Shown piece after piece: positions 7,894-37,432 of a stretch of 64,000 bases of DNA. This DNA is from a virus, in the IMG/VR virus record IMGVR_UViG_3300036766_002289, positions 28,056-92,055 of that record, one strand, 5' to 3'. Below the pieces are notes generated by a model that saw only the letters and a list, made by a program, of their open reading frames with translations, was not told where the DNA came from and searched no databases. Both the position numbers and the translations under genes were made by a program. Numbering within the stretch: position 1 is the first letter of the stretch; each line of letters opens with the position of its first letter.

Positions 7894-7909
7894 TAGCTTA
7901 GTTGTACCA
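7894..7909 (+). promoter_or_regulatory. conserved 16-nt motif TAGCTTAGTTGTACCA (copy 1)
   Basis: Identical 16-mer recurs at 9376, 12747 and 19179, with a degenerate copy at 37354. Confidence 0.4.
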
Positions 7910-7938
7910 GGAGAGTCAGAAAGATTTTGGTAATCAAC

Positions 7939-7966
7939 TTGACAAAGAAGAAATCGGTGGTATATT
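7939..7966 (+). promoter_or_regulatory. sigma70-like promoter (TTGACA-16nt-TATATT)
   Basis: Consensus -35 and -10 hexamers upstream of the HNH gene and tRNA array. Confidence 0.4.
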
Positions 7967-8043
7967 AGGGTAACGCAGTTGAGAAAAAGAATTTTTGAAA
8001 ATTATCTTGCAAAAAAAAGTTTCGGCTGCGTATATTAATATGA

Positions 8044-8343
8044 ATGGAAAGAAGAAAGCGTGATGCTCTATGGCATCGTAAGCAACACGAATCGGTAAAG
8101 ATCGAGATATTTAAAACGTTAGGGTCGAAGTGTAATATCTGTGGGTTTGATGATATTCGTGCTTTATGTATCGACCACATAAATGGCGGTGGTCTTTTAG
8201 AGAGGGCTAAACCAAAAGGCCAATATTACGTTGTGATCTGTAAGAAGTTAAGAGATAGTTGTGAAGATTACCAATTACTTTGTGCAAATTGTAACTTAAT
8301 TAAAAAGGTAGAGAGAAAAGAAGGACGTAAAAGGGTATACTGA
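8044..8343 (+). CDS. HNH endonuclease
   Basis: CNICGF..CIDHINGGG...LLCANCN HNH/Zn motif. Confidence 0.6.
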   Translation: MERRKRDALWHRKQHESVKIEIFKTLGSKCNICGFDDIRALCIDHINGGGLLERAKPKGQYYVVICKKLRDSCEDYQLLCANCNLIKKVERKEGRKRVY

Positions 8344-8821
8344 TACCAGGATGGAGAAGAAGAATCTCGCTTGGCTCATAACCAAGAGAACGGTGGTGCA
8401 AATCCATCTCCTGGAACTTTTAGAAGAATGCTCTCGTTGAGCATAGTTAGGATTTAAAAATGAACACTAATATCGTGAAACGCTGGTTTGGAATTAATGC
8501 TGTTAATCAACAGCCATGTGCCGCTGCGTTTACGGGTAAAACCCCCGTAGAACAGGGACATGATAATACAAAGCATCCTTGAGCGATGACGGCTCAGGGA
8601 TATAACCTGAGCCATACGGAAAGAACTAAAACCTTGGCTTGGGTTAAACACCTGAACCAAGGTTTTTTGTTTGCCGAAGGAAAAACCGACTGATAGACGT
8701 AACTCCCGTAATGTTCTATGACTTTACGGATCGGTGTTTTGAAAGTTGGACGCGGGGTCTTTGAAAATTTAATGAGAGTTCATGCCTGGCATTAAGTTGT
8801 TTAGGGTGAATTCTCTTGCAC

Positions 8822-8892
8822 GGGCGATTAGTTCACTGGTAGAATACCAGCCTGACGTGCTGAAGAAAAGGGTTCGATTCCCTTATTGCCCA
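8822..8892 (+). tRNA. tRNA-Val(GAC)
   Basis: Cloverleaf by eye: acceptor GGGCGAT/ATTGCCC, T-arm AAGGG-TTCGATT-CCCTT, anticodon loop CTGACGT. Confidence 0.6.
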
Positions 8893-8898
8893 CTATAT

Positions 8899-8973
8899 CA
8901 GGGATTAGCGCAGTTTGGCTAGCGCGCCTGCCTTGGACGCAGGAGGCCAAAGGTTCAAATCCTTTATCCCTGA
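8899..8973 (+). tRNA. tRNA-Pro(TGG)
   Basis: Acceptor CAGGGAT/ATCCCTG, D-stem GCGC, anticodon loop CTTGGAC, T-loop TTCAAAT. Confidence 0.6.
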
Positions 8974-8979
8974 CTTTAT

Positions 8980-34417: not shown

Positions 34418-34627
34418 ATGTTTTCACACAATCCAAAATGGTTTAGTGACAAGATGCGTGAGACTAAGGATTTACCCCATATTGAGGTGACAAAGAAAGA
34501 ATTCATCAAATTGTTTGTTAAGAATGGTGGCGAAAAGAAGGACGCAAGCTTCCAAGCTAATATATGCGAAGGATTAGGCAGTAGTGTTCAAATAGGCAAT
34601 CAGATGGTAAGTATTAAGGGGGCTTAA
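34418..34627 (+). CDS. hypothetical protein
   Basis: ORF 69 aa. Confidence 0.35.
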   Translation: MFSHNPKWFSDKMRETKDLPHIEVTKKEFIKLFVKNGGEKKDASFQANICEGLGSSVQIGNQMVSIKGA

Positions 34628-34682
34628 CTCATCGGCTAAATTTTTTAATTAAGCTTTTGAGTCATCCATACTATATTATTGT

Positions 34683-35165
34683 ATGGATATAATTCAACTG
34701 GAAAACCTTGTAAATCAAGGATTAAGTCAATATAAAATTGCAGATATTTTTGGTTGCTCGCAAAGTAAGATAAAATATTGGTGCATTAAACTTGGTATAA
34801 AGGCAAAACAAAAAATTAGGAAATGTGCTTTGTGCGGGGAAACGGATGCCATTAAAATTTATAGGCATAAAGATGGTAGGTTTAGGTATCGTTGCAAGAA
34901 GTGTGATAATAAAAAAACTATTGAGCGGTTTAGGGATTACAAAAAGAAGGCCGTAGAATATAAAGGTAGTAAGTGTTTGATTTGCGGTTATTCTAAGTGT
35001 TTAGCGTCTTTAGAATTTCATCATAGGAGTCCAGATGAAAAAGACCCGCGTTGGACTAAAATGCGAAATTGGCCCCTTTATAAAATAAAAACTGAATTGG
35101 ATAAATGTGATTTAGTCTGTAGTAATTGTCATAGGGAGATTCATTATGGAAGAGGTGAAATATGA
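34683..35165 (+). CDS. HNH endonuclease with N-terminal HTH
   Basis: CALCG..CKKCDNK Zn ribbon plus LEFHH...CSNCHREIH. Confidence 0.7.
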   Translation: MDIIQLENLVNQGLSQYKIADIFGCSQSKIKYWCIKLGIKAKQKIRKCALCGETDAIKIYRHKDGRFRYRCKKCDNKKTIERFRDYKKKAVEYKGSKCLICGYSKCLASLEFHHRSPDEKDPRWTKMRNWPLYKIKTELDKCDLVCSNCHREIHYGRGEI

Positions 35166-35427
35166 ATTTTTTTGAAGTTTGTTTTAACAGCATGTCTGGC
35201 TTAAGAATCTTGATTGTAAAGAGCGTTATGCCTTGTCTCAGTTAATGATTTGTAGGACAATTACTGGAGAACAAGTTCGTGAAAAACATCCCGAAGTAGA
35301 TTTTACTAGAATACACAATGTAACTCCTTTTTTAAGTCTTATCCCACCACCAGTGGATTTATGGTCGTTTAATGAAGATTGGTATGATGTTTTGGTCAAG
35401 GTTATGCTTTTAGAAGGTATTCGTTAA

Positions 35428-36207
35428 TTGGAGATAATCATGAATAAAGAACGTAGGGGCTTTATGGCTTGGCTAGCTGGGTTTTTTGGTCTTGGCGCGG
35501 TTACGCAATTAGGTGCGCAACCAGTAAGTATGACCAACAATCATCCAGTATATGGGAAACAAGGTGAATGGATTCTTTACAAACAAGATGTGCCAAATAA
35601 AAAAGGCATTATTGTCTTTACAATGAATGTTGGTAATCTTCCCCCCTTAAAAGCAGAAGCCTACATTGAAAGGATCAAAGATCAGTTCCGTAAAAGTGGC
35701 AACCCACAAGATTGGCAAGACTGGCAGCATATTTTTATGCCAGTCCGCCATCAAGAAACTAAGGTTGAGATTTTTTCATTTGAAAAGTGTGATTACATAG
35801 AGCCTATGAAAGTTCTGGGGGCTGTCGTTCCTTTTGTAGCCCCAAGTAAAGAATCTGTAAAGGATTATGTCCTTTTGATGTTAGGTGCGCCAGTTGTTAA
35901 GGTTGAATTAGATGATACTCAACTTGAATTTGCATATAACAGTACCAAAGAAGCTTTTGCACATGTGTCTGAGGCTAAGGGTAGCGTTTTGATGAAGTTT
36001 GAGGGTAGTCGCCCTTGGGCTGGTTTGGGCGATGAGATTTTCAAGCAAATGGTGTATGCTCGGGCCATGATTATGTTGGGTCATATTCGTGGTAAGTATA
36101 TCTCACTTCCAGGTTCAGGCGGTAATATTGTGATGGATGGTGAAACACTTAGAGAAGAAGGTAATACATTGCTAGCTGAGTGTATGGAGGAACTAAGTAA
36201 TTTATGA
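35428..36207 (+). CDS. hypothetical protein
   Basis: ORF 259 aa; ggag RBS. Confidence 0.5.
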   Translation: MEIIMNKERRGFMAWLAGFFGLGAVTQLGAQPVSMTNNHPVYGKQGEWILYKQDVPNKKGIIVFTMNVGNLPPLKAEAYIERIKDQFRKSGNPQDWQDWQHIFMPVRHQETKVEIFSFEKCDYIEPMKVLGAVVPFVAPSKESVKDYVLLMLGAPVVKVELDDTQLEFAYNSTKEAFAHVSEAKGSVLMKFEGSRPWAGLGDEIFKQMVYARAMIMLGHIRGKYISLPGSGGNIVMDGETLREEGNTLLAECMEELSNL

Positions 36208-36391
36208 CAGGTGATGAATTAGACCGATTTGAAAATTTATTACTATTCTGTTGTTCTCATGATAAGTTCAGAAGGGCACCAGTTGGGCAGGCTGTAGGGA
36301 TGTTGCCTGAATCTGTAAAAGAATTCCTTAGAACAATTAAGTCTGATGATTTAAAGAATATTAGGCCAGATTATATTAAGAAGAATTGGCT

Positions 36392-36586
36392 TTAAGCCTT
36401 AATATCGGATTTTCTAACAGTCAGGACATATCTTTGGACAAAGATATTGTCAAGTTGAAATAAAAGATCAATTAGGTCGAAGTCAACGCCTACAATAGTG
36501 CCATACATGCCGTAGAATCGGTGATCTGTGCCAATATATTTTACCCTTTTGCCTATTCTGTAAGGATTTAACCAATAGTTTTTCAC
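36392..36586 (-). CDS. small hypothetical protein, MKNYWL family, GTG start
   Basis: Minus-strand ORF starting with the conserved tgaaaaactattggtt module. Confidence 0.35.
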   Translation of the reverse strand: MKNYWLNPYRIGKRVKYIGTDHRFYGMYGTIVGVDFDLIDLLFQLDNIFVQRYVLTVRKSDIKA

Positions 36587-36602
36587 ATAGATATTTACTC
36601 AG

Positions 36603-36986
36603 ATGCTCTACTATCTGTTTTTCCTACATTTGATTGGCGATTTTGTTTTTCAAATCCGCTGGATGGCTAATAACAAAAGCCATAATCGGTGGGCACTTAT
36701 GCTGCATTGTCTGGTATATTCAGCAACTTTAGGCGGTGGTTTGTATTGGCTTAGACCTGAGTATGTTACACTGCCAGAGTTTGGTTTATTTATATTTTTT
36801 AATCTTTGTGCCCATTATTTAACTGATTCTATCACAAGCAAAATTACTTCTTATTTTTATAGTAAAGAGCAATTTTATTTATTTTTTGTTACCGTAGGAT
36901 TGGACCAATTCATACATACTGCGACGTTATTATTGAGTTGTCAGCTTATAATTGAGAAAATTGGTGGGCATAAATGGCTAACATAA
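36603..36986 (+). CDS. membrane protein
   Basis: ORF 127 aa, several TM segments. Confidence 0.4.
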   Translation: MLYYLFFLHLIGDFVFQIRWMANNKSHNRWALMLHCLVYSATLGGGLYWLRPEYVTLPEFGLFIFFNLCAHYLTDSITSKITSYFYSKEQFYLFFVTVGLDQFIHTATLLLSCQLIIEKIGGHKWLT

Positions 36987-37432
36987 GAAAATATAAGAAG
37001 TTAAGGACAGAAGGCTATACAATACTTGGTCTTTATAAGATTGGTAGAGAAAATGGCCTGGCTCCAGATGAAATTGTGATAATGTTGGATAAAGTTATGC
37101 CAGAGGAAGGGCATGATGATGTTGTTAAGTTTATGCGAAAAATGGAGTTTGGTGAAGAATATTGTATGACTTGTCAGAAATTTTTCATAGATAAGCCAGG
37201 AGAATGGTGTGATTTTCATTGCAAGGATTGCCAGAAAAGAATTGACAAAATGTGGGAAAAGGTCTATGATGCATGTGAGGAATCTGGTGAAGAATTGTCC
37301 AGTGACGAGCAGGTTAGGTTTAGTATTTTAATTGGAATGGTTACGGCGATGGATAGCTTAGTTGTACAGGAGGCAGATGGGACACAAGAGAACCAAGGGA
37401 GTGAGACAAAAACTTCGTTCAAAACAGAGTGA
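36974..37432 (+). CDS. hypothetical Cys-rich protein
   Basis: ORF 152 aa; CMTCQ...CKDCQ. Confidence 0.45.
   Translation: MANIRKYKKLRTEGYTILGLYKIGRENGLAPDEIVIMLDKVMPEEGHDDVVKFMRKMEFGEEYCMTCQKFFIDKPGEWCDFHCKDCQKRIDKMWEKVYDACEESGEELSSDEQVRFSILIGMVTAMDSLVVQEADGTQENQGSETKTSFKTE

What the first reader, a model, noticed from the sequence alone, without database searches (positions are those of the whole stretch)
7894..37368. Conserved 16-mer TAGCTTAGTTGTACCA repeated downstream of tRNAs and upstream of genes
Exact copies lie at 7894, 9376, 12747 and 19179, with a degenerate copy at 37354 inside an ORF. Each follows a tRNA gene or terminator and lies 30-140 nt upstream of the next gene. It could be a phage-specific promoter or middle/late-promoter box, an RNA-processing site, or a recombination site.
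Basis: seen in the sequence. Interest (0 to 1): 0.6.

Follow-up and report, generated by a model that had tools for sequence, protein, structure and literature searches.

The report
Phage-specific promoter of huge phages
The repeated 16-mer is the core of a roughly 20-base promoter-like signal that a group of very large (about 0.4-0.6 Mb) uncultured phages place in front of early-type genes and tRNA clusters, most likely read by a sigma factor that the phages encode themselves.

Summary
There are four exact copies and one 14/16 copy, all on the gene strand. The four exact copies lie outside ORFs.

The 16-mer is not private to this window. A syntenic 373-kb relative carries a one-base variant, CTTAGCTGTACCNAGT, 80 times on the gene strand and once on the other. 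Its 11-base core occurs 108 times versus 2 in the 174 kb I could read. 57 of those copies lie in a 25-kb block of small genes.

Three window copies (9376, 19179, 37354) sit at orthologous sites in the relative. Two (7894, 12747) are window-only. One copy in the relative is a 13-nt deletion in the window.

The motif precedes rIIA, rIIB, an RNA ligase, kinases, tRNAs, dozens of small ORFs and a phage sigma-70-family gene. It often follows terminators and can sit in tandem with sigma-70-type promoters.

27 copies have ATG exactly 5 nt after the motif. A pyrimidine/purine pair falls at that same position in over 90% of copies, which suggests a fixed start site there and leaderless mRNAs.

Best reading: an early or middle phage promoter. 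The recognising factor is inferred, with the 337-aa phage sigma as prime candidate. This is a new member of a known kind, of moderate interest.

The parts
7893..7912 (+). Motif copy 1 (aTAGCTTAGTTGTACCAGGA). It sits between a terminator and two sigma-70-type promoters. This copy is absent at the orthologous site of the 373-kb relative.
   Evidence: Homology to the relative ends at 7892. The relative has terminator then TTGACA-N17-TATAGT with no motif.
7857..7886 (+). Intrinsic terminator (13-bp stem) whose T-run leads into motif copy 1.
7939..8036 (+). Two sigma-70-type promoters: TTGACA-16-TATATT with TG (11/12 match) at 7939-7966, and TTGCAA-18-TATATT at 8007-8036. Both are conserved in the relative and lie downstream of copy 1.
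8044..8343 (+). HNH endonuclease gene, inserted relative to the relative. It is the first gene downstream of copy 1 and is followed by tRNA-Met at 8345.
   Evidence: phrog_2255, E 7e-11.
8672..8680 (+). Remnant (TGCCGAAGG) of a motif copy. The relative has TATACCTTAGCTGTACCGAAGG here, after the same terminator. The window lacks the first 13 nt.
9375..9394 (+). Motif copy 2, 10 nt upstream of tRNA-Pro(tgg) and the six-tRNA cluster 9402-9952. It is orthologous to relative position 43692.
9402..9952 (+). tRNA cluster (Pro, Gln, Gly, Val, Ile, Gly), presumably driven by copy 2.
   Evidence: That copy 2 drives it is an inference.
12746..12765 (+). Motif copy 3, 7 nt after tRNA-Thr(tgt) and 30 nt before ORF 12793-13074. 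It is absent at the orthologous site in the relative.
12764..12801 (+). 19-nt tandem duplication (TGGGAACGTTATGACACAG x2) directly after copy 3. It contains the ORF's start codon.
   Evidence: read directly from the sequence.
19178..19197 (+). Motif copy 4, after a tRNA-like element and 41 nt before ORF 19236-19526. It is orthologous to relative position 53523 (TACCTTAGCTGTACCTAGT), and the flanks are conserved too.
37353..37372 (+). Degenerate copy 5 (TAGCTTAGTTGTACAGGAGG), inside the 3' end of ORF 36974-37432 and 7 nt before ATG 37377. It is orthologous to a canonical copy at relative position 81054. It lacks the invariant A13/G14, so it is probably decayed.

Best explanation
The 16-mer is the core of a roughly 20-bp phage-specific promoter, consensus A/T-W-A-S-CTTAG(T/C)TGTACC-N-A-G-T. 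It is shared by a clade of uncultured huge phages.

It drives early/middle-type transcription units: tRNA clusters, rIIA/rIIB, RNA-repair enzymes, many small ORFs, and the phage's own sigma-factor gene.

Shown:
- Extreme over-representation.
- Near-absolute strand bias.
- Placement upstream of genes, outside ORFs.
- Conservation at orthologous sites.
- Family-wide use, with a lineage-specific one-base variant.

Inferred:
1. Transcription starts about 5 nt after the AGT, at position 21 counted from the C of CTTAG. The conserved block would then span about -25 to -6, with no -35 element. The 27 genes with ATG at exactly that position would give leaderless mRNAs.
2. The element is read by host core RNA polymerase carrying the phage-encoded 337-aa sigma-70-family factor. 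That factor would first be made from a host-type sigma-70 promoter and then from its own motif-bearing promoter.

In the window, these promoters would re-start transcription after terminators and tRNAs, at about 7918, 9397-9400, 12771 and 19203.
For: Relative genome: CTTAGCTGTACCNAGT occurs 80 times on + and once on -. The 11-mer core occurs 108 versus 2 in the 173.7 kb held, with 57 copies between 300 and 325.3 kb.

Only 5 of 108 copies lie inside a long ORF that reads through them.

Logo: positions outside the search pattern are also near-invariant. A13 is 108/108, G14 is 104/108 and A-2 is 106/108.

Start-site signature: position 20 is a pyrimidine in 99/108 copies and position 21 a purine in 103/108.

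Distance to the start codon: 27 copies have ATG exactly at positions 21-23. Most of the rest have their own GGAG and lie 17-38 nt on.

Copies sit 8-11 nt before tRNA genes (window 9376; relative 43692 and 44112). That rules out a purely translational role.

Copies directly follow intrinsic terminators (window 7857-7886; L048/L121).

The motif sits in tandem with sigma-70-type promoters at window 7894 and at relative 42466, 196410, 245403 and 252651.

Genes preceded by the motif include rIIA (phrog_612, E 2e-112) and rIIB, plus an RNA ligase, an AAA_33 kinase and AAA ATPases.

Sigma candidate:
- Its family profile hits sigma-H in the PDB (E 1.8e-6).
- The top 50 Foldseek matches are all sigma chains aligned over the full length.
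- Its gene is preceded by the motif in every relative examined, including L332.
- L332 comes from the same sequencing run as a contig identical to part of the window, and it carries the window's T variant.

A more distant phage, LR756511 (sigma 49% identical), has a related element, TTG(Y)AGCTGTAC, at the same sites.

Precedent: the phiEco32 sigma gp36 uses a single element, tAATGTAtA, with starts 6-8 bp downstream (PMC8948821). Conserved motifs upstream of early operons of jumbo phages proved to be early promoters (PMC7598289).
Against: No transcript 5' ends are available, so the promoter function, the start site and the recognising factor are all inferred.

A 20-bp near-invariant contiguous element reaching to -6 is unusual for sigma-dependent promoters. 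The candidate sigma appears to have a region 4, yet no -35 element is seen.

The window phage's own copies vary in the 3' NAGT part (CCAGGA, CCAAGA, CCAATG). Copy 9376 has T, not a purine, at position 21.

Some short-spacing genes have a Shine-Dalgarno-like AAGGAG overlapping motif positions 12-17. That would be used only if transcripts start further upstream or read through.

No phage RNA polymerase gene was looked for in the roughly 200 kb of the relative that I could not read.
Confidence: 0.78

Rival explanations
1. It is an RNA-level signal. The motif would act in polycistronic transcripts as a site for a sequence-specific endoribonuclease or RNA-binding protein. That protein would cut or mark the mRNA just upstream of each gene and tRNA, or act as a translation-initiation ('start-associated') sequence.
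For: Strand specificity and intergenic placement fit this equally well. The fixed 5-nt spacing to ATG in 27 copies links the motif to the start codon. In those copies position 12 is always a purine, giving GAGT or AAGT, which is weakly Shine-Dalgarno-like. Genes are tightly packed and co-oriented, so read-through transcripts are expected.
Against: Copies lie directly after strong intrinsic terminators, where little RNA would remain to process. Copies sit upstream of sigma-70-type promoters, that is, upstream of those promoters' own starts. Copies precede tRNAs, so the role cannot be purely translational. Two antisense copies lie in a region with no antisense genes. Recognition of an unstructured 20-nt RNA sequence has few bacterial or phage precedents (general knowledge).
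Confidence: 0.1
2. It is a DNA recombination or mobility site. The motif would mark the boundaries of mobile gene cassettes (homing-endonuclease targets, or promoter-stem-loop-type recombination sites) and spread by insertion.
For: Sister genomes differ by precise short indels at motif sites. Copies 7894 and 12747 are present only in the window, and a 13-nt deletion removes a copy at window 8672. Copy 7894 lies at the 5' edge of a segment that contains an inserted HNH endonuclease gene. A 19-nt duplication abuts copy 12747.
Against: Gene content on both sides of 12747 and 8672 is unchanged, so no cassette accompanies the indel. The HNH gene is separated from copy 7894 by promoters that are conserved in the relative. 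More than 100 co-oriented copies with a fixed relation to start codons, placed before nearly every gene of a 25-kb block, is not the pattern of a recombination site. Repeated promoters can of course also serve as substrates for recombination, as a side effect.
Confidence: 0.05
3. It is a promoter read by a phage-encoded RNA polymerase (single-subunit T7-like, or multisubunit and virion-packaged as in phiKZ/AR9), not by a sigma-directed host enzyme.
For: The length (about 20 bp), contiguity and near-invariance resemble T7-family promoters. So does the lineage-specific single-base switch: T in the window phage, C in the relative. Conserved motifs before early operons are typical of jumbo phages with virion polymerases (PMC7598289).
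Against: No polymerase-like ORF was found in the window or in the 174 kb of the relative that I read. The gene content is T4-like (rIIA/rIIB, ligases, a gp55-like ORF), and T4-like phages use the host polymerase (general knowledge). The pyrimidine(-1)/purine(+1) signature and sigma-like geometry fit a multisubunit enzyme with a sigma. A conserved phage sigma gene carries the motif itself.
Confidence: 0.2

Closest known systems
Promoters of phage-encoded sigma factors with a single element (phiEco32 gp36: tAATGTAtA, start 6-8 bp downstream; PMC8948821)
   Same: A single conserved block close to the start site, with no -35 element. It contains a TGTA core. It is read (here by inference) by host core polymerase with a phage sigma. 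The sigma gene is first expressed from a host-type promoter.
   Different: The block here is about 20 bp, not 9 bp. It is used more than 100 times rather than about 6. It drives early/middle-type genes and tRNAs. By fold, the candidate sigma is full length (regions 2-4), whereas gp36 lacks region 4.
T4 late promoter (TATAAATA at -13 to -6, read by gp55) and T4 middle promoter (MotA box at -30 plus a sigma-70 -10 element)
   Same: The phage is T4-like in gene content (rIIA, rIIB, ligases, a weak gp55-like ORF). If the start is at position 21, TACCNAGT occupies -13 to -6, the same place as the T4 late element. rIIB is a classic middle gene in T4 (general knowledge).
   Different: The sequence is unrelated to TATAAATA, which is not enriched in the window. 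The genes served are not late structural genes. No TAnnnT -10 element occurs at MotA-box spacing.
T7-family single-subunit RNA polymerase promoters (23 bp, -17 to +6)
   Same: A long, contiguous, almost invariant sequence repeated before many genes. Close relatives differ by point changes in specificity, as T7 and T3 do.
   Different: No such polymerase gene was found. There is no TATA followed by GGG around the presumed start. The start-site signature fits a multisubunit enzyme.
Early promoters of jumbo phages with virion RNA polymerases (phiKZ, AR9; PMC7598289)
   Same: A conserved motif found by computation upstream of early operons of very large phages.
   Different: Those are about 10-nt AT-rich elements centred at -10, read by phage multisubunit polymerases. 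This one is 20 nt, is not AT-rich, and occurs in phages with T4-like content.
Start-associated sequences of Cluster K mycobacteriophages (13 bp, 3-8 bp before start codons; from memory)
   Same: A conserved short repeat at a nearly fixed distance upstream of many start codons.
   Different: Here copies also precede tRNAs. Many lie 17-50 nt before genes that have their own ribosome-binding site. Many follow terminators.

Membership tests
Phage-specific promoter (generic) | Conserved sequence strongly over-represented and co-oriented with genes | tested here: met
   Window: 5 copies against 0.62 expected. Relative: 80 versus 1 for the 16-mer and 108 versus 2 for the core.
Phage-specific promoter (generic) | Located upstream of genes, outside coding sequence | tested here: met
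   4/4 exact window copies lie outside ORFs. In the relative, 103/108 copies are not inside a long ORF reading through them, and a start codon or tRNA follows within about 50 nt.
Phage-specific promoter (generic) | Conserved at orthologous positions in related genomes | tested here: met
   Window 9376, 19179 and 37354 correspond to relative 43692, 53523 and 81054. Two window copies and one relative copy are lineage-specific.
Phage-specific promoter (generic) | Primary transcript 5' ends at a fixed distance downstream | not testable with these tools
   Only indirect evidence: pyrimidine/purine at positions 20/21 in over 90% of copies, and ATG fixed at position 21 in 27 copies.
Sigma-factor-dependent promoter of a phage-encoded sigma | The genome encodes a sigma-70-family protein | tested here: met
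   The 337-aa protein family (P0007/P0015) hits PDB sigma-H at E 1.8e-6. All of the top 50 Foldseek hits are sigma chains. A copy, P0015, lies on a contig from the same run as a window-identical contig. The gene itself lies outside the 64-kb window.
Sigma-factor-dependent promoter of a phage-encoded sigma | That sigma recognises this element | not testable with these tools
   Circumstantial only: the motif precedes the sigma gene in all six lineages examined, and the motif and sigma diverge together in LR756511.
T4 late promoter (gp55) | TATAAATA element about 6 nt upstream of the start of late genes | tested here: not met
   The sequence differs. TATAAATA occurs 5 times against 5.8 expected in the window. 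The genes served are rIIA/B, tRNAs and small ORFs.
T4 middle promoter (MotA/AsiA) | MotA box about 12 bp upstream of a sigma-70 -10 element (TAnnnT) | tested here: not met
   There is no conserved TAnnnT at the required distance downstream of the GCTTAG part (logo). MotA and AsiA homologues were not searched for.
T7-like single-subunit polymerase promoter | The genome encodes a T7-like RNA polymerase | tested here: inconclusive
   None was found among ORFs of 300 aa or more in the 174 kb of the relative or in the window. About 200 kb of the relative, and the rest of the window's genome, were not read.
Cluster K-type start-associated sequence | Always a few bases upstream of protein start codons, acting in translation | tested here: not met
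   Copies precede tRNA genes. About 70% of copies lie 17 nt or more before the start, with a separate GGAG.

The most novel reading that the evidence does not exclude
A previously undescribed transcription system of roughly 0.4-0.6-Mb phages. A phage-encoded full-length sigma factor would recognise an unusually long (about 20 bp) single-block promoter with no -35 element. That promoter would fix the start site so precisely that about a quarter of its more than 100 targets are made as leaderless mRNAs beginning at the AUG. Sister phages would have switched promoter specificity by a single base (T or C at position 6 of the core), in step with divergence of the sigma. That would make a natural orthogonal sigma/promoter pair series.
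Probability: 0.35. Interest if true: 0.7.

Novelty: new member of a known kind. Interest (0 to 1): 0.5.

Why it matters
Huge phages are known almost only from metagenomes, and their gene-expression programmes are unknown.

A well-defined promoter with more than 100 copies gives a handle for three things:
- sorting their genes into temporal classes;
- annotating true gene starts, including leaderless ones;
- predicting which tRNA clusters are independently expressed.

It also pairs a candidate sigma factor with a candidate promoter, and that pairing can be tested in vitro.

If the sigma/promoter pairing and the single-base specificity switch hold, they offer compact orthogonal expression parts. 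They would also be an example of sigma-promoter co-evolution.

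Tried and rejected
- **tRNA fragment or tRNA 3' end.** I considered that the 16-mer might be a tRNA fragment (D-arm-like TAGCTTAGTTGG) or a tRNA-like 3' end (ACCA). This is rejected: the copies are not part of any tRNA model.
- **Exact 16-mer in public collections.** IMG/VR gave 10 single hits. Metagenomes gave 94 stretches, nearly all single chance hits in coding DNA. L076 has two copies inside a coding repeat. Only L048 was a genuine relative.
- **Megablast of the region against phage genomes.** No match.
- **Relatives of ORFs 6921-7787 and 4246-5193 in IMG/VR.** None found.
- **Huge phages LR756502 and LR745206.** At 30% GC, they lack the motif.
- **CTTAGTTGTACCAAGT in IMG/VR.** Only single chance hits.
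- **Bacterial and archaeal genomes.** This gives no sign of a host genome using the motif, but it is not a complete test.
- **Leader hairpin pairing the 5' AGT with the ACT before GGAG.** Seen in only 8 of 33 leaders, so dropped.
- **Upstream hairpins.** Not significantly more stable than a coding control (p = 0.10), although one hairpin sequence recurs.
- **TTGTAAC after the motif as a -10 element.** Rejected: tRNA 5' ends and 27 start codons lie upstream of where such a start site would fall.
- **The 2482-aa ORF as a virion polymerase.** No Pfam or PDB match, so no support.
- **Literature search for the sequence.** It found only an unrelated primer.

Full report
**Observation**

TAGCTTAGTTGTACCA occurs exactly at 7894, 9376, 12747 and 19179, all on the + strand. 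A 14/16 copy lies at 37354. With up to three mismatches allowed, 0.62 matches are expected, and none of 100 shuffles reached five. Nothing intermediate exists: the next best matches have 4-5 mismatches.

The window is a piece of a very large phage. It carries 39 tRNA genes, nearly all genes lie on the + strand, and it has a steady GC skew. Several HNH endonuclease genes sit between the tRNAs.

The four exact copies lie outside + strand ORFs, which cover 79% of the window.
- Copy 7894 follows a 13-bp-stem terminator.
- Copy 9376 lies 10 nt before tRNA-Pro(tgg).
- Copy 12747 lies 7 nt after tRNA-Thr and 30 nt before an ORF.
- Copy 19179 follows a degenerate tRNA-like element and lies 41 nt before an ORF.
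- The degenerate copy lies in the 3' end of one ORF and 7 nt before the ATG of an overlapping ORF.

**Relatives**

The DNA ligase gene led to a syntenic 373-kb IMG/VR contig with 87% amino-acid identity and co-linear blastn matches. A metagenome scan for the 16-mer gave almost only chance hits. The exception was a 1.2-kb contig with five motif-family copies, each after a terminator or tRNA and before a small gene. Homologues of one of its proteins brought in a dozen more contigs packed with copies, all on the gene strand. One 4.6-kb contig holds 11.

Some of these phages use the window's form, CTTAGTTGTACC. Others use CTTAGCTGTACC. Scanning IMG/VR for CTTAGCTGTACCNAGT showed that the 373-kb relative carries it 80 times on the + strand and once on the - strand. 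In the 173.7 kb of that contig I could read:
- the 11-base core occurs 108 times on + and twice on -;
- 57 copies lie between 300 and 325.3 kb, about one per 440 bp, before nearly every small gene;
- 7 copies lie in the tRNA region that corresponds to the window.

The short contigs are orthologous to that dense block, with 65-91% amino-acid identity.

**Anatomy**

The logo of the 108 copies is A/T, W, A, S, then CTTAGCTGTACC, N, A, G, T. Positions that were not part of the search pattern are still almost invariant: A13 108/108, G14 104/108, A-2 106/108. Further downstream, position 20 is a pyrimidine in 99/108 copies and position 21 a purine in 103/108.

The distance to the next start codon is bimodal.
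- 27 copies have ATG exactly 5 nt after AGT, at positions 21-23.
- Most of the others have their own GGAG and a start 17-38 nt after AGT.
- tRNA 5' ends that follow a copy lie at positions 23-27.

Only 5 of 108 copies lie inside a long ORF that reads through them.

The two minus-strand copies each point back into a + strand terminator.

Several copies are followed within a few bases by a good sigma-70-type promoter. Window 7894 is followed by TTGACA-16-TATATT, an 11/12 match. The relative has the same arrangement at 42466, 196410, 245403 and 252651.

**What the motif precedes**

In the relative, the motif precedes:
- rIIA (phrog_612, E 2e-112) and rIIB;
- a T4 Rnl1-like RNA ligase, an AAA_33 kinase, AAA ATPases and DUF932;
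- tRNAs and dozens of small ORFs;
- a 337-aa protein of the sigma-70 family.

These are early/middle-type functions in T4-like phages, which is established knowledge for T4. Structural-looking genes in the window carry no copy.

The evidence that the 337-aa protein is a sigma factor is as follows.
- It gives weak matches in PHROGs and NCBIfam.
- A family profile hits sigma-H in the PDB at E 1.8e-6.
- An AlphaFold model (pLDDT 77.6) has sigma factors as all of its top 50 Foldseek hits, aligned over the full length.

**The sigma gene and the window's own phage**

In every lineage examined, the sigma gene is directly preceded by the motif. About 400 bp upstream lies a second motif copy followed by a sigma-70-type promoter.

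One homologue, P0015 (67% identical), lies on a contig from sequencing run SRR11714510. A contig identical to part of the window comes from the same run. That contig carries the window's exact form, TAGCTTAGTTGTACC, before the sigma gene and before two neighbouring genes. P0015 is also recorded on a 590,099-bp contig.

The window therefore very probably belongs to a phage of about 0.6 Mb that has this sigma. The gene lies outside the window.

A more distant phage, LR756511 (595 kb; sigma 49% identical), has a related but distinct element, TTG(Y)AGCTGTAC, at the same sites.

**Turnover between sister genomes**

- Window copies 9376, 19179 and 37354 are orthologous to relative copies 43692, 53523 and 81054.
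- Copy 37354 has lost the invariant A13/G14. It now overlaps a ribosome-binding site of a different downstream gene, so it looks decayed.
- Copies 7894 and 12747 have no counterpart. At 12747 the relative has tRNA-Thr, 12 nt with GGAGG, then the orthologous ATG. At 7894 it has the same terminator followed directly by the conserved sigma-70-type promoters.
- Conversely, the relative's copy at 42466 corresponds to a clean 13-nt deletion in the window at 8671/8672.

So copies are gained and lost by short indels without any change of gene content.

**Mechanism**

A promoter best explains the whole set of features:
- strand bias;
- placement outside ORFs, immediately upstream of genes;
- copies after terminators, before tRNAs and before putative non-coding stretches;
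- tandem arrangement with host-type promoters;
- self-contained antisense units;
- lineage-wide single-base variants.

I infer a start site at position 21. Three things support it: the pyrimidine/purine signature, the fixed ATG position in 27 genes, and the minimum distance to tRNA 5' ends. This puts the conserved block at about -25 to -6, with TG at -15/-14 and TACCNA roughly where a -10 element sits, and with no -35 element.

The geometry resembles the single-element promoters of phage sigma factors. phiEco32 gp36 uses tAATGTAtA with starts 6-8 bp downstream (PMC8948821). It also resembles the position of the T4 late element.

The phage sigma is the prime candidate reader. A simple circuit follows: host sigma-70 makes the phage sigma, which then boosts its own gene and switches on the motif regulon. 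None of this is shown experimentally.

**Rivals**

- **RNA-level signal (processing or translation).** The fixed spacing to ATG fits it, and so does the purine-only position 12 in those copies. It fits poorly with copies after strong terminators, copies upstream of other promoters, copies before tRNAs, and copies on the antisense strand.
- **Recombination or homing site.** The indel polymorphisms and the HNH gene near 7894 suggest it. No cassette accompanies the indels, however, and the regular gene-by-gene placement argues against it.
- **Phage-encoded RNA polymerase.** Not excluded, because about 200 kb of the relative was not read. No candidate was found, and the gene content is T4-like.

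TATAAATA is not enriched.

**Verdict**

This is a real, non-random feature. It is a new member of a known kind of element.

Three aspects are worth following up: the 20-bp single block, the apparent coupling to leaderless starts, and sigma/promoter co-variation across phages of 0.4-0.6 Mb.

Noticed in passing
window 8044-8343, 10009-10449, 11442-11909, 13156-13698, 14627-15238, 34683-35165: HNH endonuclease genes are scattered through the tRNA array and share conserved Cys/His motifs. The one at 8044-8343 is an insertion relative to the 373-kb relative, so homing-type mobility is ongoing.
   Followed up: partly
window 19069-19167: A tRNA-like element with a 44-nt insert in the anticodon region. 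It scores 23.6 bits against the Rfam tRNA model, below the cut-off of 29, and ARAGORN misses it. It could be an intron-containing or a decaying tRNA.
   Followed up: partly
window 12764-12801: A perfect 19-nt tandem duplication (TGGGAACGTTATGACACAG x2) that includes the start codon of ORF 12793-13074. The first ATG copy opens only a 20-codon frame.
   Followed up: no
window 55530-62978: A 2482-aa ORF with many dispersed internal sequence repeats (for example GCAATTGTAAGTGG x10). It has no credible Pfam match (only two weak sub-threshold hits, WD40 and SCAB-Ig) and no PDB sequence match. It is probably a repetitive structural or fibre protein.
   Followed up: partly
window 50755-51884 (minus strand): A small leftward three-ORF block in an otherwise rightward genome. 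The 108-aa ORF at 50755-51081 gives weak matches to late sigma factor / sigma-70 region 2 (PHROG E 3e-4; Pfam E 1.7e-3, below cut-off).
   Followed up: partly
L153 11028 and 8699 (minus strand; relative contig 324262 and 321933): The only two antisense motif copies are paralogous units placed just downstream of + strand terminators and pointing back into them. They may produce antisense RNAs against the 3' ends of the upstream genes.
   Followed up: no
L153 and L162 (relative contig 306-324 kb): A recurrent hairpin, CAGGGT(T)CGCCCACCCTG, lies 5-13 nt upstream of about 15 motif copies. It may be a terminator or an RNA-stabilising 3' hairpin of the preceding gene.
   Followed up: partly
L109 26384-26457 (LR756511.1): ARAGORN predicts a tRNA with a CUA anticodon (labelled Pyl), that is, an amber-suppressor tRNA, in the 595-kb relative. 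This may hint at stop-codon reassignment.
   Followed up: no
window 7939-7966 and 8007-8036; relative 196410, 245403 and 252651: Near-consensus sigma-70-type promoters with an extended -10 TG occur right after motif copies. This suggests that some genes are served by both host-type and phage-type promoters.
   Followed up: partly
P0007, P0015, P0029: The sigma-family proteins are recorded on contigs of 596,617, 590,099 and 623,153 bp. The clade therefore has genomes of about 0.6 Mb, and the 373-kb IMG/VR contig may be incomplete.
   Followed up: no
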